Assembly: GCA_964015055.1 (NCBI GenBank)
Contig: CAXHBG010000001.1
Location: 730-64,729, forward strand
Reading direction: 5' to 3'
Length of the DNA stretch: 64,000 nucleotides
Origin: an uncultured Thermoplasmata archaeon
GTDB taxonomy: Archaea > Thermoplasmatota > Poseidoniia > MGIII > CG-Epi1
Numbering within the stretch: the first letter of the stretch is position 1; every line of letters starts with the position of its first letter. The notes under the pieces are model-generated. The model searched no databases. It had not been told where the DNA came from and saw only the letters and a program-made list of their open reading frames with translations. Shown piece after piece: positions 5,249 to 19,301 of the stretch. Both the position numbers and the translations under genes were made by a program.

Positions 5249-5779
5249 ATGGACGCTCTTCGGAAAATTTTACTTGCAATAGTTGCAATATCATTGTTCT
5301 TGCCTATCGCGCAAGCTGAAGACAAAATTTATCGCGTTGAAGGTTTACCTGAAGATTTGCACTATTCTACAGGAAAATCTTACGAGATTGTACTAACTGC
5401 AAATGATTATGCTTCAATTTCAGAAGTTAACATAAGCGTTACGAATGGATCTCTTAGTTCCACAGATTCATTTGAACCGGATGTATTCAACTTAATTCTA
5501 GAATCAAGTGATGAGGGATGGACTTTTTTCTGGCAAGCGCCCACCCAATCTTTTAGCTTAGGAGAAGGTAATTCTTTAATGGCTATAATTTTCACAGACA
5601 CAAACGGTCAAGTGTGGTCATCGTACGAGTCTATGCTTAGATCGCCAAAAATAATATCTCACAGTACGTCAGGAGTTCCTGACTGGGCAAATTCATTAGC
5701 ATGGGCTGGAGTTAGTATTACAGTTTTATGCTCGGTTGCAGGTTCTTATGTTCTCAGAAGAGATAAAATTAAGGAATAA
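5249..5779 (+). CDS. exported protein with N-terminal signal peptide and C-terminal membrane anchor
   Basis: A hydrophobic N-terminus ends in AQA. A C-terminal hydrophobic helix is followed by RRDKIKE. Confidence 0.5.
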   Translation: MDALRKILLAIVAISLFLPIAQAEDKIYRVEGLPEDLHYSTGKSYEIVLTANDYASISEVNISVTNGSLSSTDSFEPDVFNLILESSDEGWTFFWQAPTQSFSLGEGNSLMAIIFTDTNGQVWSSYESMLRSPKIISHSTSGVPDWANSLAWAGVSITVLCSVAGSYVLRRDKIKE

Positions 5780-5849: not shown

Positions 5850-6353
5850 ATGCAAAGAAGAATTGTAAAAGATGAGCAGGCAGTATCTCCTGTAATTGCG
5901 GTTATTTTGATGGTCGCTATTACAGTGGTTTTGGCTGCAGTATTGTACGTTTGGGCTAGCAGTTTCCTTGGTGGTACAACCAAGAACGCACCAACCGGCA
6001 GTATGATAGCTAGCGAAGATGGAAGTGGAGTCTGGACGGTTCAGATCGTCAAGATTAACCCGCAAGTTTCCGTAAACTCTGTACACTGGTACTTACTAGA
6101 TGTACAAGGAAACACTAAGACTGATGGCTTAGTTTCTGATGTCTACGGATATTACTCTGGTCAGGGTAAAGCTGTAGTCTTCATTGACAACGACTTCAAC
6201 GGTAAGTTGAGCCCAGGTGACAAATTTGAAGTTCACCCAGGTGAAGCTGGTTCCGATTTGGAAAGTGTAACTGACGTAAGTGATTACTCCTTCCGTATGA
6301 AGTTCGAGCCTACTGGTGACGTAATCGGATACGATATAGGTCTACAATCATAG
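5850..6353 (+). CDS. archaeal type IV pilin-like protein (class III signal peptide, DUF1628-like N-terminus)
   Basis: The N-terminus MQRRIVKDEQAVSPVIAVILMVAITVVLAAVLYVW carries a charged prepilin-type leader, an AVSPVI motif and a hydrophobic helix. The gene is monocistronic and is followed by a strong terminator. Confidence 0.7.
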   Translation: MQRRIVKDEQAVSPVIAVILMVAITVVLAAVLYVWASSFLGGTTKNAPTGSMIASEDGSGVWTVQIVKINPQVSVNSVHWYLLDVQGNTKTDGLVSDVYGYYSGQGKAVVFIDNDFNGKLSPGDKFEVHPGEAGSDLESVTDVSDYSFRMKFEPTGDVIGYDIGLQS

Positions 6354-8132: not shown

Positions 8133-9143
8133 TTAGACTTTACTTTCCATGGTAATTGCTTCAACAGGACAAGCAAATGCACAAAGAGTACATCCGACAC
8201 AAGTATCGTTCAAAATTAAAGCTTTTTTGGATTCAAACTGAGATGTTCTTGCGTTTAACTGCCAAGAAATCATATCAATTGATGCAAAGTTACAATAGTA
8301 AACACATTGAGTACAACCTATGCATTTTTCATTATTAACTAAGGCAATGAAATCTTTACCTTGAGGAAGAGATTTGAGAGTAATTTTTCTCAATTCTTTA
8401 AACATTTCCTTAGCTTTTTCTATACCTGTTGTAGGCAATTCCTCATTATCTAAAGCTTCTTTAACTCTCTTGAGCCACTTATTTGGTTTGTGAAAGAAAA
8501 GGGATGTAGTTCCCATTGCCTGATATGCAGTGGTACCTGCACTTTCTTCTAGAACAGTTTCAGCTTCAGACTCTACTACTGCCCCAGAGGCAAAAGAAGT
8601 CATACTTTCAACTAAATCTGACTGAAACGCACCATCACTATCTACACAAGCTAGCTTAGACATCGCTCCGTTCATCCATTGGTCAGCAGGATCTTCGAAA
8701 TCAACATCGCAATCTACTCTGTCGTGAATTCTGGAACCGCCCATGTCTTCCATAGTCTTGTCCCAATCTTTTCCGGATTGACAGAATAAATCATAACCTG
8801 TATCGCCAAGTGCACAAATTGAGAAATGAGTGTTGGTTAGTATTTTGCCAACACCTACCGCAGCTTCGTACAATTCTTCCGCATTATCTGGCATTTCTCC
8901 TTCTCCCCATGTTGAACAGACAATCATTACTCTGGACATTCCCGACATTGAATTGATATCAAAACCGTCCATGTCGTGAACGGTTGGATTCAATCCGTAT
9001 TTGGAAGCCTCTTTCTTCCATTTTCCTGCAAGTCCTTCGGAGTTGCCGCTTTGGGAGCCGTACAAAATATGTAAGTCGCGATTTCCTTCTGTTGCAAATG
9101 CAGTAATATCTACATCAGACACTATTTTCCATCCTCTAAACAA
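8133..9143 (-). CDS. flavodoxin-like FMN domain fused to a 2x[4Fe-4S] ferredoxin domain
   Basis: The N-terminal ILYGSQSGNSEGLA is the flavodoxin FMN loop. The C-terminus has CIGCTQCVYYC and CVGCTLCAFACP cluster motifs. Confidence 0.7.
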   Translation of the reverse strand: MFRGWKIVSDVDITAFATEGNRDLHILYGSQSGNSEGLAGKWKKEASKYGLNPTVHDMDGFDINSMSGMSRVMIVCSTWGEGEMPDNAEELYEAAVGVGKILTNTHFSICALGDTGYDLFCQSGKDWDKTMEDMGGSRIHDRVDCDVDFEDPADQWMNGAMSKLACVDSDGAFQSDLVESMTSFASGAVVESEAETVLEESAGTTAYQAMGTTSLFFHKPNKWLKRVKEALDNEELPTTGIEKAKEMFKELRKITLKSLPQGKDFIALVNNEKCIGCTQCVYYCNFASIDMISWQLNARTSQFESKKALILNDTCVGCTLCAFACPVEAITMESKV

Positions 9144-10048
9144 GCGACTAAGAATTGCATTAAATCCATCATTTCATAATCATGGTGATGCCCATCTTCA
9201 GGATTCATTCTTTCTTCGTTAAGCATACACTGCATGTGCATGTAGCATTTTGGACATCCACCTAGCATAAGGTCAATTCCGGCGTCAGTACCTTGATCTA
9301 ATCTTTTTCGACGTACAGCTTTAGTAGCATCATTACAATACATCATCGAAGATACGCCACAGCACAATGCTCTCTCTTTGTTGTTTTCAAGCTCAACCAT
9401 TGTAGCTCCATCGACTAATTGTATCAAATCTCTAGGAGCTTCATACTCTCCCATCATTCTTCCTAGCCGGCAGGGATCATGGTAAGAAACGGTCACATTT
9501 TCAGGAGCTTTGAACTTCAATCCTCTACCCTGTAAAGTTTGTGTAATATGTTCAACTTTTATCCCAAGTATGTTGGGCAAATCGTAGTCTACAGCAAAAG
9601 TACGATAGCATTCAGCACATGAGCACGTTAGAATCTTTATTCCAGATTCTTTTAATCGCCTCATGTTATGTTCCTTTAAAGCATCATAAACTTCCAAATT
9701 ACCTTGCCATAGCTGGTCATGGCCTGAACATTTGAACACATTCATATCCAGAATTAAAGGGTCGATTTCTGCATAATTTAATAATTTAATTGAAGCAGCA
9801 GCAATTGATGCGTGATCAGCGTCTCCTTTGTTCAAGTGTGTAAATTTGACTTCAACATCCATAAAGTCGACACATCCAGGAAAATATCCATATTCATGAT
9901 ATCTTTCAGGCTTCCATTCATTTGATTCTTTGTTCATTGCATCATCTACAATTAGTCTTTCAAAAAGTGGATGAGGAATTGATCTTGCGTATGTTTTTTG
10001 TCTAGGCTTATCGCTCATAAGCGACACCTCCTGCAGGAGTGCCTCCAA
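9122..10048 (-). CDS. CCG-domain Fe-S protein, HdrB/GlcF/SdhE-like
   Basis: The sequence is cysteine-rich, with a signature LCCGVS and a final GCPKC. Further Cys clusters are FPGC, TCSCAEC and HDPC. The true start may be the internal MSDKPRQ at 10018. Confidence 0.7.
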   Translation of the reverse strand: MEALLQEVSLMSDKPRQKTYARSIPHPLFERLIVDDAMNKESNEWKPERYHEYGYFPGCVDFMDVEVKFTHLNKGDADHASIAAASIKLLNYAEIDPLILDMNVFKCSGHDQLWQGNLEVYDALKEHNMRRLKESGIKILTCSCAECYRTFAVDYDLPNILGIKVEHITQTLQGRGLKFKAPENVTVSYHDPCRLGRMMGEYEAPRDLIQLVDGATMVELENNKERALCCGVSSMMYCNDATKAVRRKRLDQGTDAGIDLMLGGCPKCYMHMQCMLNEERMNPEDGHHHDYEMMDLMQFLVACLEDGK

Positions 10049-11144
10049 TACTAGGTAAATCTAGTGCGGCACCTTCAGTGGATGCCCCCAATGTAGCTAG
10101 AAGCCTTTGTTCTAGCACATAATCTACGTATTCGATATTTTGTGGACATACTGCAGTACACATTCCACAGGAAATACAGGACCAAAGAGCTACTCCATCG
10201 TGTTTATTTTGGAATGTATTGAATATAATATTTAATTCATGCTCACCTTCCATGTCTCTAACGGGACATATGTCATCACATAATCCACATTGATAGCAAC
10301 GATTTAGTTTGAATTCATAAATACGTTGCATTCTCCTATCTTGGATACCTTTAGTGTAAAGGTCAAATCTTTCTTCATCACTTAGGGGTTTGGCACCTTC
10401 AGATCGTCTTCTATCAAGGAAAAGGTAAGTTAACAGTGCACCTCCGATGGGACCCCACAGCGTAAGTGTGTATAGCAGGTCTGTAGTAACTTCTGGGTAA
10501 TATAGAGCAATATTGGCATTAATTGAAAAAACTGACAGCATGACTACCATTATGATGCCGTATACTCCAATAGCAGCCCTAACTGGGTCTTCAATAGGTC
10601 TTCTTTCATGTCCTCGATTTATTACATCACCGTATTGAGGATCAATGATGGCACCCAATGCCCTATCGATAAATGGAACAGCTACTACTAGCCCAATGAC
10701 AAGACCTTGTACAAGGGTTCCCCATACTTTTGCACTCATTAAAAATAGTTCAAAATCTTCTAGCCCCAAGAAGGGAATCATAGACAGAGGTAATCCAATT
10801 TTTAAATCGGTAGCAACTTTAAGGCATCCAAAAGCCCACAATAAATACCAATCAGGTAGTGGCGGAGGATAAGCAGTACCGGCTGTTGGGTCTGCAGATT
10901 CGTGTAGTGGTGGTGGAATGAATGCCCCTAAGTAAAATAAAATAGATATGACATAGAAAGTATAGATGGCATCTCTTGATAATTCATGAGGGTAAAGAGG
11001 TTCACCCTTGACTAAACCAGCTTCTAGTACAGAGTGATCCTCACGGTTTTCAAGTTTTCTAATAGTATCAAGCTCTTGTTGCTCTTTTATCGATTCGGCT
11101 ATCATTTCAGCAGCATCGTCTTCCAAAATTTGCTCTTCGCCCAT
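10008..11144 (-). CDS. cytochrome b6f subunit-IV-like membrane domain fused to a C-terminal 2x[4Fe-4S] ferredoxin (HdrC-like) domain
   Basis: ADPTAGTAYPPPLPDWYLLW matches the PEWY Qo-site motif of PetD (the C-terminal half of cytochrome b). After this come CYQCGLCDDICPV and CISCGMCTAVCPQ. The start overlaps the cytochrome b6 stop by 1 nt. Confidence 0.75.
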   Translation of the reverse strand: MGEEQILEDDAAEMIAESIKEQQELDTIRKLENREDHSVLEAGLVKGEPLYPHELSRDAIYTFYVISILFYLGAFIPPPLHESADPTAGTAYPPPLPDWYLLWAFGCLKVATDLKIGLPLSMIPFLGLEDFELFLMSAKVWGTLVQGLVIGLVVAVPFIDRALGAIIDPQYGDVINRGHERRPIEDPVRAAIGVYGIIMVVMLSVFSINANIALYYPEVTTDLLYTLTLWGPIGGALLTYLFLDRRRSEGAKPLSDEERFDLYTKGIQDRRMQRIYEFKLNRCYQCGLCDDICPVRDMEGEHELNIIFNTFQNKHDGVALWSCISCGMCTAVCPQNIEYVDYVLEQRLLATLGASTEGAALDLPSIGGTPAGGVAYER

Positions 11145-12100
11145 TAGTGAGGTTCAGCCTCCCCTTGTATCCATACTAAAGCCATGTGAATAATCATTAG
11201 AACAGTACCTACCAAAGGGAGCACAAATATGTGCAACCAGTACATTCTTGTGACAGTATCTCCTGTAACTTGTGTTCCTCCGAATACAATTTGTGCCATC
11301 AAAGGCCCCATTGCAGGAATAGAAGTAGCCATTTCGAGACCTATAGCAGCGGCAGCATAACCAAGGGCATCCCAAGGCAATAAGTAACCGGTGTATCCAA
11401 AGAAAATAGTAACCATCAAAAGTATGACTCCTAAAATCCAATTTACTTCTCTCGGATTTCTATAAGCACCTACAAAATAAACTCTCATCATGTGCAAGAA
11501 TACTGCTGCAACCATGAAGTGAGCTGACCAATGATGAATGGCTCTAATAATGTATCCAAAAGAGACCTGAGTCATGATTAGTTCCATTGATTGATATGAT
11601 CCAGAGGTAGCATTACCATCTTCGTCAAAAACTATTTCACCATCAGGAACATAGTAGAAACCAAGATAAATTCCGGTGATCACTAAAACAATATAGGCGA
11701 AAAAGGAAAGTCCACCTAACGAGTAAAATGGATACCAATACCAAACAGATTTTACATTATATCTTTCAGTATGAGATTGAGGCATTGTTCGTCCACTTGA
11801 AGGTAAAAGTGTGAATACAACTGAATAATATTCTCTTTTGGCCAGAGAAGCATATCTGTGTAAAGCAAATCTTTCATCAAACCAGTTCCATGTCGCCAAT
11901 ATAACTCTAGGTAATGTTCCTGAAACATACAAATAGCCTACAGTTAAAACAGCCATAAGTAATTGTAAAAAGATTAATGGGAATGTATATTTTCTCATCA
12001 ATTCTTCAATAAGAGGAGGGTCACCAGAAGCTGCACTAGCTGGCAGTGTTAAGAACGTAATACTTCCTAAAAGTGTAGCTAAGAATAGTTTTATTTTCAT
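11144..12100 (-). CDS. petB: cytochrome b6-like protein (N-terminal half of cytochrome b, complex III)
   Basis: IRAIHHWSAHFMV, HMMRVYF and GYLLPWD are hallmark cytochrome b/b6 motifs with heme His ligands. I set the start at MKIKLFL, which gives a 4-nt ATGA overlap with the Rieske stop. The listed ORF starts 24 nt earlier. Confidence 0.85.
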   Translation of the reverse strand: MKIKLFLATLLGSITFLTLPASAASGDPPLIEELMRKYTFPLIFLQLLMAVLTVGYLYVSGTLPRVILATWNWFDERFALHRYASLAKREYYSVVFTLLPSSGRTMPQSHTERYNVKSVWYWYPFYSLGGLSFFAYIVLVITGIYLGFYYVPDGEIVFDEDGNATSGSYQSMELIMTQVSFGYIIRAIHHWSAHFMVAAVFLHMMRVYFVGAYRNPREVNWILGVILLMVTIFFGYTGYLLPWDALGYAAAAIGLEMATSIPAMGPLMAQIVFGGTQVTGDTVTRMYWLHIFVLPLVGTVLMIIHMALVWIQGEAEPH

Positions 12101-12771
12101 CCTTGTCCACAATATTTGAGCCACTCGATTTGAGTCATTAGCCCAATTAAACCTCCATCTTTTTCAGCTATTGGGACTACAGGAAGGCCGTACGGAGCAG
12201 GTCCTTCTAATAATTCAGCAGCCATAACTTCACGTCCTTGTTCATCAACATTTTTAGTAACTGAGAGGGGATCAAAAAGAGATAAATGGCATGGACATAA
12301 AAACATATTTTCATAATCGTTTCCGCTAATGGTACTAGTTCCTTCCGCAGTGAATACGGGTTTGCAGCATAAGTGTGGGCATTTATAAGTATGATATGCC
12401 ATTAGGTAAGCGTTTCCATCGTCGACGCTTATTCCTAAACCCTCCATAGTTGGTTCAGCGGGAACTTTGGCTAGAGCAAGCTGTATTTCACAAGTACCTA
12501 ATTCTTGTTCCATCTCTTTTGGTCCCCAATTCACTATGGCTACATCCCATAGATTGAAATCCTCTTTTTTAGCAATATTGCCAGCCATATTTTCATACCA
12601 TTTTCCGCTCTCAGATTTATAAGTTAAGGTCTCGTGTGCATCATCCTCATTACACCTTGTTACGGGTGGAGGAAGTAATGTCTTAAGTGCAGGAACAGTT
12701 AAAGCAGCAGTCATTCCAGCGCCGGCTAATCCAATTGCACCTTGCAGAAATCCTCTTCTTGTTATTTTCAC
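12097..12771 (-). CDS. petC: Rieske [2Fe-2S] protein with Tat signal
   Basis: RRGFLQG is a twin-arginine motif. CPHLCC...CPCHLS are Rieske boxes I and II. Confidence 0.85.
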   Translation of the reverse strand: MKITRRGFLQGAIGLAGAGMTAALTVPALKTLLPPPVTRCNEDDAHETLTYKSESGKWYENMAGNIAKKEDFNLWDVAIVNWGPKEMEQELGTCEIQLALAKVPAEPTMEGLGISVDDGNAYLMAYHTYKCPHLCCKPVFTAEGTSTISGNDYENMFLCPCHLSLFDPLSVTKNVDEQGREVMAAELLEGPAPYGLPVVPIAEKDGGLIGLMTQIEWLKYCGQG

Positions 12772-12773
12772 TA

Positions 12774-12977
12774 TTACCTTTCAAGTTTTGTAATAACCTT
12801 ACTCCTCCTTTTCTTCAATTCTAAAACATCGGGCAAGAATGATCTTCTGTAGAAATCGAGCATCAGCCCCAGTATCATAAATGCCATAGCCAAGGTAAAT
12901 GACAAAAATTGTTGATCCCATCCTTGTATGATTCCGTAAATAAATAACGAGTCATACATTATTTCAAGGACTAGCAA
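12774..12977 (-). CDS. small membrane protein (TTG start), possibly longer or fused upstream
   Basis: The listed ORF is 67 aa with one or two TM helices. The same frame stays open for 60 more codons upstream without ATG, GTG or TTG (see findings). Confidence 0.4.
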   Translation of the reverse strand: MLVLEIMYDSLFIYGIIQGWDQQFLSFTLAMAFMILGLMLDFYRRSFLPDVLELKKRRSKVITKLER

Positions 12978-13125
12978 AATTAGGACAATTGCAAAGATTT
13001 CTCCTTGCTCTTTTCCTGGAGTTTCTCTAACAACCTTACCTAAATCTTCATCTTTGTATGTACCTAATAGCTTTTGCGCATCTTCAGGTGTAATGTCACC
13101 TCTTGCAATCTTCTCAAGTAATTCG

Positions 13126-13821
13126 TTAACCTCGGTAATGGGAACTACCTCCTCGTATTACTATGTATGCAAATAAAACCATCACAAATACAACAGCCAT
13201 TGATATCAGAGCAATCCAGTACTGCATTAGGCTTACGCCTAGTTCATGTATTGAAACTTCCTCAGATACTATTTGTGGAGTACCTATGGAGACAGCAGAG
13301 ATGTAGCCCCATTGATCTCCATTTGTTCCTACCCCATTTACTACATTGTAATAAATTGTGAATAGAGCATCTCCAGCACCTTCGCTAGGAGATGTCCATT
13401 GGAACGTCCAATTGCGTTGTGCGTTACTATCAGCATTGTGTGAAATGTATTTTCCGCCTTCACCGATCCAATAAAGCGCATCAGTCTGAAATGCGCCCTC
13501 GCTAACCTCAGCTAGGAACCCACCATATCGAATAGCATCAGGTTCAGAAATTACAGTTGTATCATTGATTACAAGTGAAATATTGTATGTTGAATCAGGA
13601 ATATACTTTGAAGGTATGCCCTCGAGCATGTACATACCTTCGTCAAGTTGTTCATCCATGTGACAAGAGCAACCGTTGGCTATACTGTCTTTTGCCCAGT
13701 CCTCCCCAGCTCCTTGCTGAGCACCTCCTGCAGGGTAACCATTGACACTCATACCGACTGACATGACGGTTATCAATAAGATTGCTAATAGTGCGTAAGT
13801 TCCTTTTTGATTTATAGCCAA
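13126..13821 (-). CDS. exported protein with signal peptide, about 170-aa ectodomain and C-terminal TM anchor
   Basis: The N-terminal hydrophobic leader is MAINQKGTYALLAILLITVMSV. A C-terminal helix is followed by RGGSSHYRG. The ectodomain contains GCSCHMDEQLDEGMYM. Confidence 0.55.
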   Translation of the reverse strand: MAINQKGTYALLAILLITVMSVGMSVNGYPAGGAQQGAGEDWAKDSIANGCSCHMDEQLDEGMYMLEGIPSKYIPDSTYNISLVINDTTVISEPDAIRYGGFLAEVSEGAFQTDALYWIGEGGKYISHNADSNAQRNWTFQWTSPSEGAGDALFTIYYNVVNGVGTNGDQWGYISAVSIGTPQIVSEEVSIHELGVSLMQYWIALISMAVVFVMVLFAYIVIRGGSSHYRG

Positions 13822-13860: not shown

Positions 13861-13925
13861 CGCTATATAAAAATATAGTATATTTTAGGCACTTTTTGTA
13901 CAAGGCTATAGTATTATTAAATAAC
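13861..13925. promoter_or_regulatory. divergent promoter region with a perfectly palindromic TATA element CTATATAAAAATATAG
   Basis: The region is AT-rich and lies between divergent gene starts at 13821 (minus) and 13940 (plus). A second TATA-like element, CTATAGTATTATTAAATA, lies nearer 13940. Confidence 0.3.
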
Positions 13926-13939
13926 TGTTTTGATAGTTC

Positions 13940-15526
13940 ATGAAGGGTAGTAAATTAAGTGAAAAAACAGGCTTAATTTTACTAGGTCTTCTGACGTTTA
14001 CATTTCGCTATCCTATCACAGAGACACCTACAGGTTCAGATAATTTTTACTATATCTCAGCAGTCAAAGCTATATTGATTCACGGAGAAATATTTTGGGC
14101 TGAGAATATACTTTCAATATATGGTTTATTTCCTGGGACAGCTCCATTAGGAAGTCTAATACTAGCTAGCACAATTACTGAAATTACGGGGTTATCAGTT
14201 CATAATTATCATTTGATACATAGTATTTTCTTATCATTATTATCTACTTTTGGATTCTTTCTTCTCTCAGGTGAATTCACTACAAACTACAAGAGCCGTT
14301 GGTTTTCATCTTTAGCATTTTCACTTGCTCCTAGGTTTCTAACTTTTACTTTGTGGAGATTTTCATTACGTTTTTCTTTAATTGCATTACTTCCTTTTTT
14401 TATGTGGGCTATTCTCAGAATAATGAATAAAAAATATGGACGTAATCCTAAAAAATTACTGATTTTATTATTAATCTTCACTCTACTTCTTCCTTCATTA
14501 CATAGAATGGGATTACTTTTACCAGGTTTTTTTATATCATTTTTCGTATCTTTTTTATTGTGGCAATGGCAAGAAAACGCATTGAACAGAGAGCGTGCAG
14601 GGAGGCAAGTTTTTACATTTATATTATTTTTAGCTACATATCTGTTTTACCTTCAATACTTAGATTTTTCACCCTATTCTCCTGATGATGAGATGATTGG
14701 AGTTTATTATCTAAGAGAGGGGACAATTTTATCAAATATAGTCAACCTTGGTTTTTACTATCTGATAAACGTGGGGCCAATCATGTTTTTATCATTAATA
14801 GGAATAATTTTTTGGATTCAAGAAGGAAGAGTGCCATTTAGCTACATGTTTTCATTTACATTATTGGCATTATTCTTGTTTTCGATATCAGATTTAATTT
14901 ACATCCCATATCTATTCACTTTTTTCATAATAGTATTTGTGGCTCCTGGAGTAGATTTTTTCTTAGATAATCTTCAGAATTACAAAGCAAGGCTAGGTGC
15001 ATTTCTTTCAATATTATTGATGTTAACAATATCATTTTCTAGCTTAGATGTGTCATACAGAGTAGATGCTCATGAGAGAGAAGAATTTTACTACTCGTAT
15101 AACATTAGCGAGAGTAGCATTTCTACAGGCCTTTGGATCAATGAAAACTTTTATTCAGAAATTATTGAGTCCAACGATCAAAAAAAACCTAGAAGAGTAG
15201 TAGCCTACTCAAATTCAATAAATTTGGCTGATGCATCAGAATTATCTTCAAATCTGATAGATTTATCCGGAATGGAATTAAAGCGCTATCCAATTTTTGA
15301 TTTATACTGGTACGCAGAAGATCATTTATGGAAATGGGAAAATGTTTTAAATCAGACTAATTTCGATGTAAATTTATCGCTAGTTAATCTAGGAATGTCT
15401 AACTTTAGCGGTAAATCATCAACATCTTCCATTACCGTTGACAGTTACTACAAGAGTATGCCAGATTATAATTTTAAGTTGTATTATGATGAAGAGTTAG
15501 CATTGTATTGGACAAACAATTATTAA
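13940..15526 (+). CDS. large polytopic membrane protein with C-terminal soluble domain (GT-C-like glycosyltransferase candidate)
   Basis: About 10 hydrophobic helices make up the first two thirds. The tail is hydrophilic and rich in N-x-S/T. No catalytic motif was recognised. Confidence 0.45.
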   Translation: MKGSKLSEKTGLILLGLLTFTFRYPITETPTGSDNFYYISAVKAILIHGEIFWAENILSIYGLFPGTAPLGSLILASTITEITGLSVHNYHLIHSIFLSLLSTFGFFLLSGEFTTNYKSRWFSSLAFSLAPRFLTFTLWRFSLRFSLIALLPFFMWAILRIMNKKYGRNPKKLLILLLIFTLLLPSLHRMGLLLPGFFISFFVSFLLWQWQENALNRERAGRQVFTFILFLATYLFYLQYLDFSPYSPDDEMIGVYYLREGTILSNIVNLGFYYLINVGPIMFLSLIGIIFWIQEGRVPFSYMFSFTLLALFLFSISDLIYIPYLFTFFIIVFVAPGVDFFLDNLQNYKARLGAFLSILLMLTISFSSLDVSYRVDAHEREEFYYSYNISESSISTGLWINENFYSEIIESNDQKKPRRVVAYSNSINLADASELSSNLIDLSGMELKRYPIFDLYWYAEDHLWKWENVLNQTNFDVNLSLVNLGMSNFSGKSSTSSITVDSYYKSMPDYNFKLYYDEELALYWTNNY

Positions 15527-17803: not shown

Positions 17804-18847
17804 GTGCAGCGTCAGCTTTCCCTTAGCGATTCAGAAGATGCCGTCAGTCCAATAATAGGTACTGTTTTAATATTGGCAATTATGGTTTCTATAACGGGAA
17901 CCATGCTTGCTTGGGGTATTCCGCAAATTCAAGAAAGTGAAGCTTATGCAATTTACACTTCTGCTCAAAATAATTTTTTAAATTTTGATGCAGACCTAGA
18001 TCAGGTAATAGTCCAAGGCGAAGGTAGTTCTCGTTCATCAACAGTGTCATTCAGTGCTGGAACATTTGTTCACCGTGAAAATCTAGACGAAATCCGTTAT
18101 TATTACGAAACCACCTCTTGGTCATCATTTGAGATTCTTGGAGTAAAAAATGGAGCAACTACATTTGCAATAATTGATAATAAAGAAGTTATAGATGATT
18201 TTGATATAACTATATCTTATCCAAACGGAACTATTTTGGAAGTGAAATCTTCAGCTTTTATTGCTTCAGGATTTCCAGCTTTGGTTTATGGGACTTCAGC
18301 TACATATACAAGTACAGCTAACGATACTGTTGTTGGTGGTTTTTTCATATATGGCGTAGACTCACTTTCGTACAAATATTCCTCTGTCTCAGGTGTTTAC
18401 AAAATGCGTTTGTTCAATGGTGGAATAGTTACTAGAGAGCCAGGAGGTATTTTCTTTGTAAGCTCGAAACCTATTATCAGATCCATTAGCACAGATGATT
18501 CCTATGAATCACTGGTTTTGTACCAAACAGATTACAATATGACTACTGGAGCTAAATCTCTAACTGGAGGAAATTATAATTTTGAAGCTAGGAATCAAGG
18601 TGGAAAAGATTCTTCTTTCGAAGTCTTTAACGTAAGAATGGGTTTTAGCGGCGAGAGTTCAATGGCATTAAAAAATTATTACTCAACGTATTGGAGTTTC
18701 AGTCCCGAAACATACACCATTTCTAGTACCCAATCAACAGCAGCAGCTAACATGGGCTTTGAGGAAGACATTTTTTACAATCAAGATACTGCATTTGACT
18801 TTAGAATTTTGGAGAGAACAATTCATGTTACGTTTAACCTCCGATGA
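17804..18847 (+). CDS. class III signal-peptide protein (DUF1628-type pilin-like), large ectodomain
   Basis: The gene has a GTG start. DAVSPIIGTVLILAIMVSITG matches the N-terminus of the pilin at 5850 (AVSPVIAVILMVAITV). Confidence 0.6.
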   Translation: MQRQLSLSDSEDAVSPIIGTVLILAIMVSITGTMLAWGIPQIQESEAYAIYTSAQNNFLNFDADLDQVIVQGEGSSRSSTVSFSAGTFVHRENLDEIRYYYETTSWSSFEILGVKNGATTFAIIDNKEVIDDFDITISYPNGTILEVKSSAFIASGFPALVYGTSATYTSTANDTVVGGFFIYGVDSLSYKYSSVSGVYKMRLFNGGIVTREPGGIFFVSSKPIIRSISTDDSYESLVLYQTDYNMTTGAKSLTGGNYNFEARNQGGKDSSFEVFNVRMGFSGESSMALKNYYSTYWSFSPETYTISSTQSTAAANMGFEEDIFYNQDTAFDFRILERTIHVTFNLR

Positions 18848-19301
18848 TTCTGGTGCATCTCAGTTAATAGGTTACGTATACACGGCATTAATTTCAGTCT
18901 TAATTTTATCTTCGATGATGCTAACATCAAGTACTATGTTGAATGGCAGCGTTTCGAATACTGCACAGGAAGAGGCTGAACAGCTTGCACTATATTTTCA
19001 ACTGGCTGTTGAAGATTTACTCAATACAGTAAGAGAATATCCAGGCTCTACTCCAGTAATGGTTTTAGATACAGGAACAGAAGCAATTAATCATGGTATA
19101 CAATACAAAGTAACTGGTTTAACCACAGGATTAAAAGTGACTACAATTCAACCTCGAGGAGGTTCGTTCGAGGTTAACTTTCCACTAGCGCCAGCAACTT
19201 CAATTGAAACTACAAATTCTGCATCTTTAAAGTCTACTACTTCTTATATAGTCATATCCTATGATGATAATCTAAAGGTTGTCAAGTTAACCTCAGGATG
19301 A
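18825..19301 (+). CDS. class III signal-peptide pilin-like protein
   Basis: I trimmed the start to MLRLTSDDSGASQLIGYVYTALISVLILSS, a short polar leader followed by a hydrophobic helix. Confidence 0.5.
   Translation: MLRLTSDDSGASQLIGYVYTALISVLILSSMMLTSSTMLNGSVSNTAQEEAEQLALYFQLAVEDLLNTVREYPGSTPVMVLDTGTEAINHGIQYKVTGLTTGLKVTTIQPRGGSFEVNFPLAPATSIETTNSASLKSTTSYIVISYDDNLKVVKLTSG

What the first reader, a model, noticed from the sequence alone, without database searches (positions are those of the whole stretch)
13126..13821. Candidate cytochrome f/c1 functional analogue upstream of the Rieske gene
This is the first gene of the complex III operon. It encodes a protein with an N-terminal signal peptide, an ectodomain of about 170 aa and a single C-terminal TM anchor with a short basic tail. 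Cytochrome f and c1 have exactly this topology, and the gene sits where petA lies in many b6f operons. There is no CxxCH heme motif. The ectodomain contains GCSCHMDEQLDEGMYM, in which Cys, His and Met residues are clustered. Thaumarchaeota lack c-type cytochromes and use copper proteins, so this may be the missing high-potential electron acceptor of the Rieske centre.
Basis: inference. Interest (0 to 1): 0.55.

Follow-up and report, generated by a model that had tools for sequence, protein, structure and literature searches.

The report
Cytochrome-f-like subunit of archaeal complex III
The first gene of a respiratory Rieske/cytochrome b operon in a Marine Group III archaeon encodes an outward-facing, membrane-anchored protein that resembles cytochrome f and has an invariant Cys-x-Cys-His motif, which makes it the best candidate for the missing electron-accepting third subunit of this complex in some of the ocean's most abundant archaea.

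Summary
The ORF is real: minus strand, 13126-13821, 231 aa, with a Sec signal peptide, a beta-sandwich ectodomain and a C-terminal TM anchor. It is the first gene of a Rieske/cytochrome b6 operon. The organism is Marine Group III (Poseidoniia), not Thaumarchaeota.

The protein passes NCBIfam's cut-off for the uncharacterised 'choice-of-anchor V' domain and has a Reeler-like fold. G-C-x-C-H is 98-99% conserved across 124 divergent relatives.

- **Synteny:** in all 71 MGII/MGIII loci with enough upstream DNA the gene sits at a fixed distance before DUF7318, Rieske and cytochrome b. The same order holds in relatives at 22-30% identity.
- **Domain swap:** in five sister Thermoplasmata operons the ectodomain is replaced by a type-1 copper cupredoxin. 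In two of them the cupredoxin sits on the same TM anchor. So the ectodomain is an interchangeable one-electron module.
- **Fold:** a confident AlphaFold model (pLDDT 88.6) matches F-spondin reeler best, then cytochrome f.
- **Motif behaviour:** 'CH' is invariant and the first Cys is variable (Cx1-6CH, AxCH), as at heme-c sites. One orthologous operon adjoins CcmF and a DsbD/CcdA-type gene.

Best reading: a functional analogue of cytochrome f/c1, probably a c-type heme protein with a contracted CXCH site. The heme is inferred, not shown.

The parts
13126..13821 (-). ORF231: precursor of the choice-of-anchor V / Reeler-like membrane-anchored protein (231 aa, TTG start)
   Evidence: ORF list and sequence. 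NCBIfam NF041895 E 7.5e-18, 65 bits against a cut-off of 42. 101 close homologues, 231 aa in MGIII.
13738..13821 (-). Sec-type signal peptide (residues 1-28), predicted cleavage SVNG|YP
   Evidence: AF2 helix 5-21. No twin-arginine motif. Family-wide -3/-1 rule: the residue 4 positions before invariant G32 is A/S/G in 110 of 114 sequences, and the residue 6 before it is small or aliphatic.
13726..13737 (-). Predicted mature N-terminus Y29-P30-A31-G32. G32 is 97% conserved and lies at a fixed distance from the cleavage site.
   Evidence: It parallels the Y1-P2 N-terminus of cytochrome f, whose alpha-amino group ligates heme (established knowledge; Martinez 1994, cited in PMC5600118). The ligand role here is an inference.
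13660..13674 (-). G50-C51-S52-C53-H54: candidate contracted heme-c attachment site (CXCH)
   Evidence: The DNA reads GGT TGC TCT TGT CAC. Invariant in MGIII and 98-99% conserved in the family. Variants CxxCH, Cx3CH, Cx4CH, Cx6CH and AxCH occur with 'CH' invariant.
13282..13641 (-). Reeler-like beta-sandwich ectodomain (residues about 61-180)
   Evidence: AF2 pLDDT 90-98 over this region. Foldseek 3coo_B E 1.5e-6, TM 0.60. Profile against PDB: Spondin-1 E 0.013. Pfam Reeler is matched by 39 of 96 family members.
13438..13440 (-). H128, conserved in 97% of the family (Gln in 4 representatives)
   Evidence: Role unknown. It is either a second ligand or an H-bond partner of the cofactor.
13129..13239 (-). 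Conserved TM anchor plus basic tail (residues 195-231: GVSLMQYWIALIS...IRGGSSHYRG). Presumed docking helix to the Rieske/cytochrome b core.
   Evidence: Invariant residues within MGIII. G195, W202 and G204 are conserved in distant orthologues. The same anchor carries a cupredoxin in L067 and L051 (BLASTP E 7e-6).
12774..13139 (-). DUF7318 small membrane protein. The listed ORF is 12774-12977. The conserved reading frame continues upstream into the end of ORF231 without a canonical start codon.
   Evidence: Pfam PF24002 E 5.5e-12. Frame analysis and orthologues. It always follows the family gene.
12097..12771 (-). Rieske [2Fe-2S] protein with a Tat signal (boxes CPHLCC and CPCH)
11144..12124 (-). 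Cytochrome b6-like subunit (N-terminal half of cytochrome b) with an N-terminal extension of about 110 aa
   Evidence: Pfam Cytochrome_B E 1.4e-38. Alignment A5.
10008..11144 (-). Subunit IV-like (cytochrome b C-terminal) domain fused to a 2x[4Fe-4S] ferredoxin domain
9122..10048 (-). CCG-domain (HdrB/TfrB-like) protein
   Evidence: Pfam CCG E 2.9e-16. NCBIfam TfrB-like.
8133..9143 (-). Flavodoxin domain fused to a 2x[4Fe-4S] ferredoxin; last gene of the cluster
   Evidence: Pfam Flavodoxin_1 E 1.4e-26, Fer4_21 E 8.5e-14.
13864..13871 (-). TATA-like box (TTTATATA on the minus strand) about 45 nt upstream of the start codon; possible archaeal promoter of the operon
   Evidence: Read directly from the sequence. 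The spacer is AT-rich, so this is weak evidence.

Best explanation
ORF231 is the extracytoplasmic, membrane-anchored redox subunit of the Rieske/cytochrome b6-type quinol-oxidising complex of Marine Group III archaea. The same applies to its orthologues in MGII and other Thermoplasmatota.

**Proposed mechanism**
1. The protein is exported by the Sec pathway.
2. Its signal peptide is cut at SVNG|YP.
3. Its conserved C-terminal helix docks it to the cytochrome b / subunit IV / DUF7318 membrane core.
4. Its Reeler-like beta-sandwich holds a one-electron centre that takes the 'high-potential' electron from the Rieske [2Fe-2S] head and passes it towards the terminal oxidase. This is the job of cytochrome f, c1 or CbsA.

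The centre is most likely a single c-type heme. It would be attached by thioether bond(s) to C51 and C53 of a contracted C-x-C-H site, with H54 as proximal ligand. The free N-terminal amino group (as in cytochrome f) or H128 would complete the site.

**Shown:** gene, topology, family, fold, motif conservation, synteny, and replacement of the domain by cupredoxin.
**Inferred:** physical membership of the complex, the redox role, and heme as the cofactor.
For: **1. Synteny**
- 71 of 71 MGIII/MGII loci with enough upstream DNA carry the gene 1.0-1.4 kb upstream of cytochrome b, on the same strand, and every intact copy has CxCH.
- Orthologues at 22-30% identity keep the order family gene, DUF7318, Rieske, cytochrome b6, subunit IV.

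**2. Domain displacement**
- Five sister Thermoplasmata operons lack the family gene and carry a plastocyanin/azurin-type cupredoxin instead.
- In L051 and L067 the cupredoxin is the first gene, with a signal peptide, C-x4-H-x4-M copper ligands and a TM anchor homologous to that of ORF231 (BLASTP E 7e-6). It is followed by DUF7318, Rieske and cytochrome b.
- In L039 and L066 Pfam shows the cupredoxin fused to cytochrome b; L040, with a similarly extended cytochrome b ORF, was not scanned.
- In the haloarchaeal cluster halocyanin has been proposed as the acceptor (PMC3509893).

**3. Structure**
- The AF2 model has pLDDT 88.6 and pTM 0.72, and the N-terminal segment carrying CxCH is well ordered.
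- The best PDB neighbours are the F-spondin reeler domain (E 1.5e-6), then cytochrome f: 2jxm_B 1.5e-5, 1ci3 6.4e-5, 1q90_A 7.2e-5. These rank ahead of generic Ig domains.

**4. The motif behaves like a heme-c site**
- C53-H54 is invariant. The first Cys sits at variable spacing (Cx1, Cx2, Cx3, Cx4, Cx6) or is replaced by Ala in operon-linked orthologues.
[quoted passage not shown] 2019 JBC, reference seen). That the motif is CXCH is from my own knowledge.

**5. Fixed cleavage site**
- The signal-peptidase site lies exactly three residues before invariant G32 in about 96% of members. This constrains the mature N-terminus to x-[P/S]-x-G; here it is Y-P-A-G, against Y-P in cytochrome f.

**6. 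Export route**
- Export is Sec-type, whereas the Rieske partner is Tat-exported. This fits cofactor insertion outside the cell.

**7. Link to heme-c maturation genes**
- In L095 two tandem CxCH paralogues and their Rieske/cytochrome b operon lie next to divergent CcmF and DsbD_TM/thioredoxin-like genes. There is no canonical CxxCH ORF in the 12.7 kb held.

**8. The gap is recognised in the literature**
- MGII have cytochrome b and Rieske but lack a canonical bc1 (PMC6336850).
Against: - No cofactor has been observed.
- No cytochrome c maturation genes were found in the 64-kb window or within 6 kb either side of any Poseidoniia locus. Whole genomes could not be searched.
- Sequence homology to cytochrome f is not significant (hhalign probability 2.8%, E 0.016), and no Pfam cytochrome f family is hit. 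TM-scores to cytochrome f are only 0.31-0.38.
- The wider family (1165 cluster representatives) also occurs with other anchors and in contexts with no obvious redox partner.
- The CcmF adjacency is a single case.
- H128 is Gln in four representatives, so its role is unclear.
- A cofactor-less paralogue in the same window shows that the scaffold can have non-redox uses.
Confidence: 0.55

Rival explanations
1. The role is the same (acceptor subunit of the Rieske/cytochrome b complex), but the redox centre is copper or another metal held by C51/C53/H54, with or without H128. This is a new non-cupredoxin copper site.
For: - Cys and His are conserved, and H128 is 97% conserved with Gln as its only substitute. 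Gln is an axial copper ligand in some blue copper proteins (established knowledge).
- The interchangeable counterpart in sister operons is a copper protein.
- No Ccm genes were seen near Poseidoniia loci.
- Sec export is compatible with loading copper outside the cell.
Against: - The fold is reeler-like, not cupredoxin.
- There is no H...C-x(n)-H-x(n)-M ligand pattern, and the Met residues are not conserved.
- The invariant pair consists of adjacent residues (C53-H54). That is the hallmark geometry of heme-c sites and awkward for chelating a single metal ion.
- The upstream Cys is dispensable and variably spaced.
Confidence: 0.12
2. It is a non-redox structural subunit. A Reeler/Ig-like surface domain stabilises, assembles or tethers the complex, for example to the S-layer. 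The two cysteines form a small disulfide loop and the His is structural.
For: - Reeler and Ig-like domains are typically adhesion or structural modules, and the top fold hits are extracellular matrix and adhesin domains.
- The family uses many anchor types and occurs outside redox operons.
- A paralogue without the motif exists next to a pilin-like gene.
- Loops of the Cx4C and Cx6C kind are common disulfide loops.
Against: - A purely structural domain would not be expected to be swapped for a cupredoxin with intact type-1 copper ligands on the same anchor in orthologous operons.
- AxCH variants leave a lone Cys.
- A structural role does not explain 99% conservation of the C-H pair, or the fixed mature N-terminus.
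Confidence: 0.2
3. It is a heme or metal chaperone, or an uptake protein. It would deliver a cofactor to the complex or to the terminal oxidase and would not itself be on the electron path.
For: It has an extracytoplasmic Cys/His site and is membrane-tethered. Surface-anchored relatives are widespread. The neighbourhood of CcmF and DsbD in L095 could also fit a maturation role.
Against: - It has the strict stoichiometric-looking position of a first operon gene, and its TM anchor co-evolves with the complex.
- It is replaced by an electron carrier (cupredoxin), not by a chaperone.
- It has no similarity to the known chaperones Sco, PCuAC or CcmE.
Confidence: 0.08

Closest known systems
Cytochrome f (PetA) of the cytochrome b6f complex
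   Same: - Sec signal peptide and a mature N-terminus Tyr-Pro.
- A Cys...Cys-His site about 20 residues from the N-terminus, preceded by a short helix.
- A mainly beta-sandwich ectodomain and a single C-terminal TM anchor with a short basic tail.
- Encoded alongside Rieske, b6 and subunit IV genes.
- Foldseek E 1.5e-5 to 7e-5.
- The best hhalign register puts CH on C24-H25 and aligns the following strand, IPSKYIPDSTY against VPQAVLPDTVF.
   Different: - The motif is CxCH, not CxxCH.
- There is no small domain.
- There is no significant sequence similarity (probability 2.8%) and no Pfam PF01333/PF16639 match.
- TM-scores are only 0.31-0.38.
- Heme binding and the N-terminal amine ligand are unproven.
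- The family is archaeal and bacterial and widely spread, not cyanobacterial.
CbsA (cytochrome b558/566) of the Sulfolobales cbsAB-soxLN cluster
   Same: It is an archaeal analogue of cytochrome c1. It is encoded as the first gene, followed by a small hydrophobic protein (CbsB, compare DUF7318), then Rieske (SoxL) and cytochrome b (SoxN) (PMC5461723).
   Different: CbsA is reported as a b-type (non-covalent) heme glycoprotein (own knowledge).
Membrane-anchored cupredoxins of sister Thermoplasmata Rieske/cytochrome b operons (L051, L067), and halocyanin of the haloarchaeal cluster
   Same: They have the same operon position, the same signal-peptide / ectodomain / TM-anchor design, a homologous anchor and the same downstream genes. 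Halocyanin has been proposed as the acceptor of the haloarchaeal complex (PMC3509893).
   Different: The ectodomain is a type-1 copper cupredoxin rather than a Reeler-like CxCH domain.
Reeler domain (PF02014; F-spondin and reelin N-terminal domain)
   Same: It is the best structural match (3coo_B E 1.5e-6, TM 0.60) and a weak profile match (E 0.013). 39 of 96 family members hit the Pfam model.
   Different: The F-spondin reeler domain, the one eukaryotic example examined, has no counterpart of H128 in the profile alignment, and its N-terminal CxCH-equivalent segment falls outside the aligned region. Eukaryotic reeler domains have no link to respiratory complexes. ORF231 itself scores below the Pfam gathering threshold (13.8 against 21 bits).
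NCBIfam NF041895 'choice-of-anchor V domain'
   Same: ORF231 scores 65 bits against a cut-off of 42. This is the family it formally belongs to. NCBI names one orthologue this way.
   Different: The family has no assigned function. The TM-anchored, Rieske/cytochrome b-linked subgroup and its possible heme site are not described in any paper I could find.
Contracted heme-binding motif of an anammox multiheme cytochrome (Ferousi et al. 2019)
   Same: It is a precedent that fewer than two residues between the cysteines can still give a functional covalent heme site (reference seen; that the motif is CXCH is from my own knowledge).
   Different: That site lies in an all-alpha multiheme cytochrome of a bacterium with a full maturation system. 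Here it would be the only heme of a beta-sandwich protein.

Membership tests
choice-of-anchor V domain (NCBIfam NF041895) | HMM score above the curated cut-off | tested here: met
   E 7.5e-18, 65 bits against a cut-off of 42, residues 41-173.
choice-of-anchor V domain (NCBIfam NF041895) | Signal peptide, N-terminal G-C-x-C-H, conserved T/S-H-T and W-x3-W-T-A-P beta-sandwich motifs, variable C-terminal anchor | tested here: met
   Alignment of 124 representatives. The anchors seen are TM, PGF-CTERM-like and T9SS.
Reeler domain (Pfam PF02014) | Pfam HMM above the gathering threshold | tested here: not met
   13.8 bits against 21 for ORF231. However, 39 of 96 relatives match with best E 3.1e-7, and the fold match is the best in the PDB. 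This is a superfamily-level relationship.
Cytochrome f (PetA) | CxxCH heme-c site near the mature N-terminus | tested here: not met
   The motif is C-S-C-H. A few family members do have CxxCH.
Cytochrome f (PetA) | Sequence membership (Pfam PF01333/PF16639 or profile-profile homology) | tested here: not met
   No Pfam hit in 96 members. hhalign probability 2.8%, E 0.016.
Cytochrome f (PetA) | Beta-sandwich large domain preceded by N-terminal heme-binding helices | tested here: inconclusive
   Foldseek E 1.5e-5 to 7e-4 against four cytochrome f structures, but TM 0.31-0.38 and no small domain.
Cytochrome f (PetA) | Alpha-amino group of mature residue 1 (Tyr-Pro...) as sixth heme ligand | not testable with these tools
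   The predicted mature N-terminus is Y-P-A-G, and the cleavage site is fixed relative to invariant G32 in 110 of 114 members. Ligation needs a structure or spectroscopy.
Cytochrome f (PetA) | Single C-terminal TM anchor; subunit of a Rieske/b6/subunit IV complex | tested here: inconclusive
   The anchor and the operon linkage are shown. Physical association has not been tested.
c-type cytochromes in general | Covalent heme at a C-x(n)-C-H site | not testable with these tools
   The motif variation is consistent with this. There are no biochemical data.
c-type cytochromes in general | A cytochrome c maturation system in the genome | tested here: inconclusive
   None in the window or in the Poseidoniia loci. 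CcmF and DsbD_TM are adjacent to the orthologous operon in L095. Whole genomes were not searchable.
Cupredoxin / blue copper proteins (plastocyanin, halocyanin) | Cupredoxin fold and H...C-x(n)-H-x(n)-M ligand set | tested here: not met
   No Pfam Copper-bind or Cupredoxin hit. No cupredoxin appears among the fold hits. The Met residues are not conserved. The sister-operon proteins do meet this test.
Cytochrome c1 | All-alpha class I cytochrome c fold with CxxCH | tested here: not met
   The model is a beta-sandwich and there is no CxxCH.
CbsA (cytochrome b558/566) | Sequence similarity to Sulfolobales CbsA | not tested
   No CbsA sequence was available. Only the operon analogy is known, from the literature.
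Rieske-type [2Fe-2S] site | Two boxes, C-x-H-x-G-C and C-x-x-H (CPCH) | tested here: not met
   Only one CxCH is present. The first Cys, which would be the cluster ligand, is the dispensable one.

The most novel reading that the evidence does not exclude
ORF231 and its relatives are a previously unrecognised class of c-type cytochrome. A single heme would be bound by a contracted C-x-C-H site on a Reeler-fold beta-sandwich, with cytochrome-f-like N-terminal amine ligation. It could be an ancient relative of cytochrome f.

It would be the missing third subunit of complex III in MGII and MGIII archaea. By extension, the more than 1000 'choice-of-anchor V' clusters would be surface-anchored cytochromes that every CxxCH-based census has missed. 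This may bear on the 'haloarchaea paradox' of heme-stained membrane proteins without CxxCH candidates (PMC4429474).
Probability: 0.35. Interest if true: 0.88.

Novelty: new variant of a known kind. Interest (0 to 1): 0.72.

Why it matters
Marine Group II and III archaea are among the most abundant planktonic archaea, and none has been cultured. Genome surveys say they have cytochrome b and a Rieske protein but 'lack the canonical bc1' (PMC6336850). It is therefore unknown how electrons leave their complex III.

This gene gives a concrete, testable candidate with defined residues: C51, C53, H54, the mature N-terminus and H128.

If the cofactor is heme, several things follow:
- The set of known heme-c attachment motifs and cytochrome folds grows.
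- Cytochrome f gains its first plausible structural relative outside oxygenic phototrophs.
- Motif-based counts of archaeal cytochromes c are shown to be incomplete.

Even if the cofactor is something else, the cupredoxin/Reeler-domain swap on one conserved anchor is a clean example of modular replacement of the acceptor subunit in Rieske/cytochrome b complexes.

Tried and rejected
**Hypotheses rejected**
- Cupredoxin or copper-site reading. There is no cupredoxin fold or ligand pattern, and no type-1 copper-like ORF anywhere in the window.
- Rieske-like half-site. CSCH resembles Rieske box II (CPCH), but there is only one box and the first Cys is dispensable.

**Tests that came back negative or non-significant**
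- Sequence search of the PDB with the single protein gave nothing meaningful.
- Sequence homology to cytochrome f is not significant. I verified Chlamydomonas, Mastigocladus, Nostoc and Synechocystis cytochrome f sequences against the PDB, built alignment A7 and ran hhalign.
- The first AF2 model from 20 close orthologues was poor (pLDDT 67) and gave only reeler and Ig hits. The deep alignment was needed.
- A WWD-motif scan and phmmer with E. coli CcmF/C/E/B and the L095 DsbD-like protein against all loci and the window found nothing.

**Searches that failed technically or returned nothing**
- Genome scans with family alignments A2 and A3 failed because no stretch was conserved enough.
- The scan with the putative halophile-like pair A4 found no relative. 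I could not show whether haloarchaea carry the family.
- A metagenome scan meant to extend the CcmF-adjacent contig found nothing.
- The second word-indexed homologue search returned mostly MGIII again.
- Cluster look-ups gave almost no organism names for the distant relatives.
- Literature searches returned no relevant paper for 'choice-of-anchor V', DUF7318, MGIII with Rieske, reeler domain with heme, or MGII with ccmF.

**Uninformative**
- The genomic contexts of non-TM family members told nothing.
Full report
**1. The observation**

The finding's coordinates hold a 231-aa ORF on the minus strand (13126-13821). It has a TTG start with a GGGAG Shine-Dalgarno-like sequence 8 nt upstream. It is followed on the same strand by six genes:
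- a small DUF7318 membrane protein (PF24002, E 5.5e-12);
- a Tat-signal Rieske protein;
- a cytochrome b6-like protein (Pfam Cytochrome_B, E 1.4e-38);
- a subunit IV-like domain fused to a 2x[4Fe-4S] ferredoxin;
- a CCG-domain (HdrB/TfrB-like) protein;
- a flavodoxin-ferredoxin fusion.

The gene upstream (13940-15526) is divergent, so ORF231 is the first gene of the cluster.

The protein has an N-terminal hydrophobic signal peptide without a twin arginine, an ectodomain of about 165 residues, one C-terminal TM helix and the tail RGGSSHYRG. The string GCSCHMDEQLDEGMYM is at residues 50-65. C51 and C53 are the only cysteines. No ORF of at least 100 aa in the 64-kb window has a CxxCH.

So the descriptive part of the finding is correct, apart from the strand not being stated. 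Its taxonomic premise is wrong. The closest proteins and loci are Marine Group III euryarchaeotes / Poseidoniia, with MGIII-CG-Epi1-type MAGs at 94% cytochrome b identity. They are not Thaumarchaeota.

**2. What family it is**

ORF231 passes NCBIfam's curated cut-off for the 'choice-of-anchor V domain' (NF041895, 65 bits against 42). It has a sub-threshold Pfam Reeler match. UniRef calls an orthologue 'Reelin domain-containing', and NCBI calls one 'choice-of-anchor V domain-containing'. Neither label carries a function, and I found no paper on the family.

A profile search of 1.84 billion cluster representatives gave 1165 relatives at E <= 1e-3. In an alignment of 124 of them, each representing a 50%-identity cluster, the following are conserved:
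- G32: 97%
- G50-C51-x-C53-H54: 98-99%
- H128: 97%
- a set of beta-sandwich core residues: P70, Y79, G100-G101-F102, W138, W142, P145, N159, D169, W171.

M55 varies within MGIII, and M63 is MGIII-specific.

**3. Structure**

A first AlphaFold model from 20 close orthologues was mediocre (pLDDT 67). With 96 diverse relatives the model reached pLDDT 88.6 and pTM 0.72. This includes the N-terminal segment that carries the motif, where the blocks for residues 31-60 score 83-89.

Foldseek against the PDB gave, in order:
- the F-spondin reeler domain (3coo_B E 1.5e-6, TM 0.60);
- four cytochrome f structures: 2jxm_B 1.5e-5, 1ci3 6.4e-5, 1q90_A 7.2e-5, 1e2z_A 6.9e-4;
- generic Ig-like domains and adhesins, ranked below these.

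No cupredoxin appears. TM-scores to cytochrome f are modest (0.31-0.38).

Profile-profile comparison with a cytochrome f alignment that I verified against the PDB is not significant (probability 2.8%, E 0.016). Even so, its best register is suggestive:
- the end of the signal peptide lies on Y-P;
- the family's C-H lies on C24-H25 of cytochrome f;
- the following strand aligns as IPSKYIPDSTY against VPQAVLPDTVF.

I therefore treat cytochrome f as a structural and architectural analogue. Homology is possible but not demonstrated.

**4. Genomic association**

Distant TM-anchored relatives at 22-30% identity keep the same order: family gene, DUF7318, Rieske, cytochrome b6, subunit IV. Some also keep the ferredoxin/CCG/flavoprotein tail.

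A scan of GTDB species genomes with a cytochrome b alignment returned 80 loci from MGIII, MGIIa, MGIIb and other Thermoplasmata:
- In 71 of them the family gene lies 1.0-1.4 kb upstream of cytochrome b on the same strand, and every intact copy has CxCH.
- Four lack enough upstream sequence.
- Five lack the gene.

- In L051 and L067 the first gene encodes a signal peptide and one or two plastocyanin/azurin-type cupredoxin domains with intact C-x4-H-x4-M ligands.
- It also encodes a TM anchor, GVALRAYWIGLIG...KYESRHH, that is homologous to ORF231's GVSLMQYWIALIS...RGGSSHY (BLASTP E 7e-6).
- It is followed by DUF7318, Rieske, cytochrome b, subunit IV-ferredoxin and a CCG protein.
- In L039 and L066 Pfam shows a cupredoxin fused to the N-terminus of cytochrome b, and L040, which has a similarly extended cytochrome b ORF, was not scanned.

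So, in otherwise orthologous operons, the Reeler-like CxCH ectodomain and a classical one-electron carrier are interchangeable on the same membrane anchor. This matches the haloarchaeal cluster, where halocyanin was proposed as the acceptor of the Rieske/cytochrome b complex (PMC3509893). It is the strongest argument that ORF231 is a redox subunit and not mere decoration.

**5. What the cofactor might be**

Four observations favour a c-type heme.
- *Motif variation.* The C53-H54 pair is invariant, while the upstream Cys is variable. CxCH is the majority form. CxxCH, Cx3CH, Cx4CH and Cx6CH also occur, and Ala replaces the Cys in two independent operon-linked sequences (GATCH in P0117 and P0224). 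This is how heme-c sites vary. It is not how type-1 copper, Rieske or disulfide motifs vary. [quoted passage not shown] 2019, reference seen; that it is CXCH is from my own knowledge).
- *Fixed N-terminus.* The signal-peptidase -1 position (A/S/G in 110 of 114 sequences) lies exactly four residues before invariant G32. The mature N-terminus is therefore fixed as x-[P/S]-x-G, here Y-P-A-G. Cytochrome f starts Y-P, and its alpha-amino group is the sixth heme ligand (Martinez 1994, cited in PMC5600118).
- *Export route.* The protein is Sec-exported while its Rieske partner uses Tat.
- *Neighbouring maturation genes.* In L095 two tandem CxCH paralogues and their Rieske/cytochrome b operon sit next to divergent CcmF (PF01578 + PF16327) and a DsbD_TM/thioredoxin-like gene. 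There is no canonical CxxCH ORF in the 12.7 kb held.

Against a heme:
- I found no Ccm homologue in the window or near any Poseidoniia locus, and I could not search whole genomes.
- The CcmF adjacency is a single case.
- H128 is Gln in four representatives, so it may not be an axial ligand.

**6. Rivals**
- *A novel copper or other metal site with the same role* (0.12). The copper-protein counterpart and the conserved Cys/His favour it. The fold, the adjacent C-H pair and the dispensable first Cys argue against it.
- *A non-redox structural subunit with a disulfide loop* (0.20). The adhesin-like fold neighbours favour it. So do the family's many anchors and non-redox contexts and a motif-less paralogue in the same window. 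The cupredoxin swap argues against it.
- *A cofactor chaperone* (0.08).

**7. Comparison with what is known**

Functionally the closest systems are cytochrome f, cytochrome c1 and Sulfolobales CbsA. In Sulfolobales the cbsAB-soxLN cluster has the same layout: an extracellular heme protein, a small hydrophobic protein, Rieske and cytochrome b (PMC5461723).

In formal terms the protein belongs to NF041895 and is a Reeler-superfamily relative. It fails the membership tests for cytochrome f (motif, sequence), cytochrome c1 and cupredoxins.

The literature records the gap it would fill. [quoted passage not shown] Kletzin et al. describe heme-stained membrane cytochromes in haloarchaea without CxxCH candidates (PMC4429474). 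I could not show that haloarchaea carry this family, so that link is speculative.

**8. Verdict**

The copper lean and the taxon are not supported.

The thing itself is a new variant of a known kind: an acceptor subunit of a Rieske/cytochrome b complex built on a Reeler-like fold, with a probable contracted heme-c site.

Confidence:
- about 0.7 that it is a redox subunit of the complex;
- about 0.45 that the cofactor is covalently bound heme;
- 0.55 for the combined statement as worded.

Noticed in passing
window 5249-5779 (+), next to 5850-6353 (+): A paralogue of ORF231 (176 aa, BLASTP E 3e-10). It has the same signal peptide / beta-sandwich / C-terminal TM design but lacks the whole CxCH segment and the H128 equivalent. 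It sits beside an archaeal pilin-like gene (QAVSPVIAVILMV...). Weaker hits at the equivalent downstream position in L016, L026, L031, L033 and L037 suggest it is conserved in MGIII.
   Followed up: partly
window 12774-13148 (-): The DUF7318 gene has no canonical start codon for its conserved N-terminal part. The reading frame stays open and conserved (ITEVNELLEKIARGD...) from inside the 3' end of ORF231, but the first ATG/GTG/TTG is at 12977, in the middle of the first TM helix. Several MGIII orthologues have a GTG at the equivalent upstream position. Here an AGGAGG lies 8 nt before an ATT codon (13137-13139). This could be a near-cognate start or translational coupling.
   Followed up: partly
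window 8133-11144 (-): The Rieske/cytochrome b operon carries a cytoplasmic Hdr-like module: subunit IV fused to a 2x[4Fe-4S] ferredoxin, a CCG-domain protein, and a flavodoxin-ferredoxin fusion. L005, L095 and the cupredoxin-type loci add flavoprotein or Fe-S genes. This suggests a Rieske/cytochrome b complex wired to low-potential cytoplasmic carriers. Electron bifurcation at the Qo site is possible, as has been discussed for anammox complexes.
   Followed up: no
window 11144-12124 (-): The MGIII cytochrome b6-like protein has an N-terminal extension of about 110 residues with hydrophobic segments that the more distant orthologues lack. The position of the heme-ci cysteine (CxGG) reads S-L-G-G, so no heme ci is expected.
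   Followed up: partly
L095 1-4453 and 5037-6738: CcmF (764 aa, cut by the locus end) and a 560-aa DsbD_TM/thioredoxin-like protein lie divergently upstream of two tandem GCYCH family genes and their Rieske/cytochrome b operon. The locus holds no canonical CxxCH ORF. The rest of the contig could not be fetched.
   Followed up: partly
L004 4853-9060: Two tandem family members (one is P0111, with extra C-terminal TM segments) lie directly upstream of an 805-aa molybdopterin oxidoreductase instead of a Rieske/cytochrome b operon. This hints that the domain may serve other extracytoplasmic redox enzymes too.
   Followed up: no
L039 5059-6909, L066 2364-4322, L040 1844-4300: Cytochrome b proteins with one or two N-terminal plastocyanin-type cupredoxin domains and an Ig-like domain fused in front of the b6 core. 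This is an unusual acceptor-cytochrome b fusion in Thermoplasmata MAGs. Pfam was run on L039 and L066 only.
   Followed up: partly
L013, L017, L087: The record titles name Chloroflexota, Nitrosomonadaceae and Yoonia. The contigs nevertheless carry MGIII/MGII-type operons at 51-90% cytochrome b identity to the window, so they are probably mis-binned archaeal contigs.
   Followed up: no
window 13940-15526 (+): The divergent neighbour is a 528-aa polytopic membrane protein with no Pfam hit. Its composition resembles a glycosyltransferase or oligosaccharyltransferase. It is not conserved next to the operon in distant lineages.
   Followed up: no
window 17804-19301 (+): Two ORFs with an archaeal pilin/flagellin-like N-terminus (for example QRQLSLSDSEDAVSPIIGTVLILAIMV), lying upstream of a run of co-directional ORFs that extends to about 24593. 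Possibly a surface-appendage locus.
   Followed up: no
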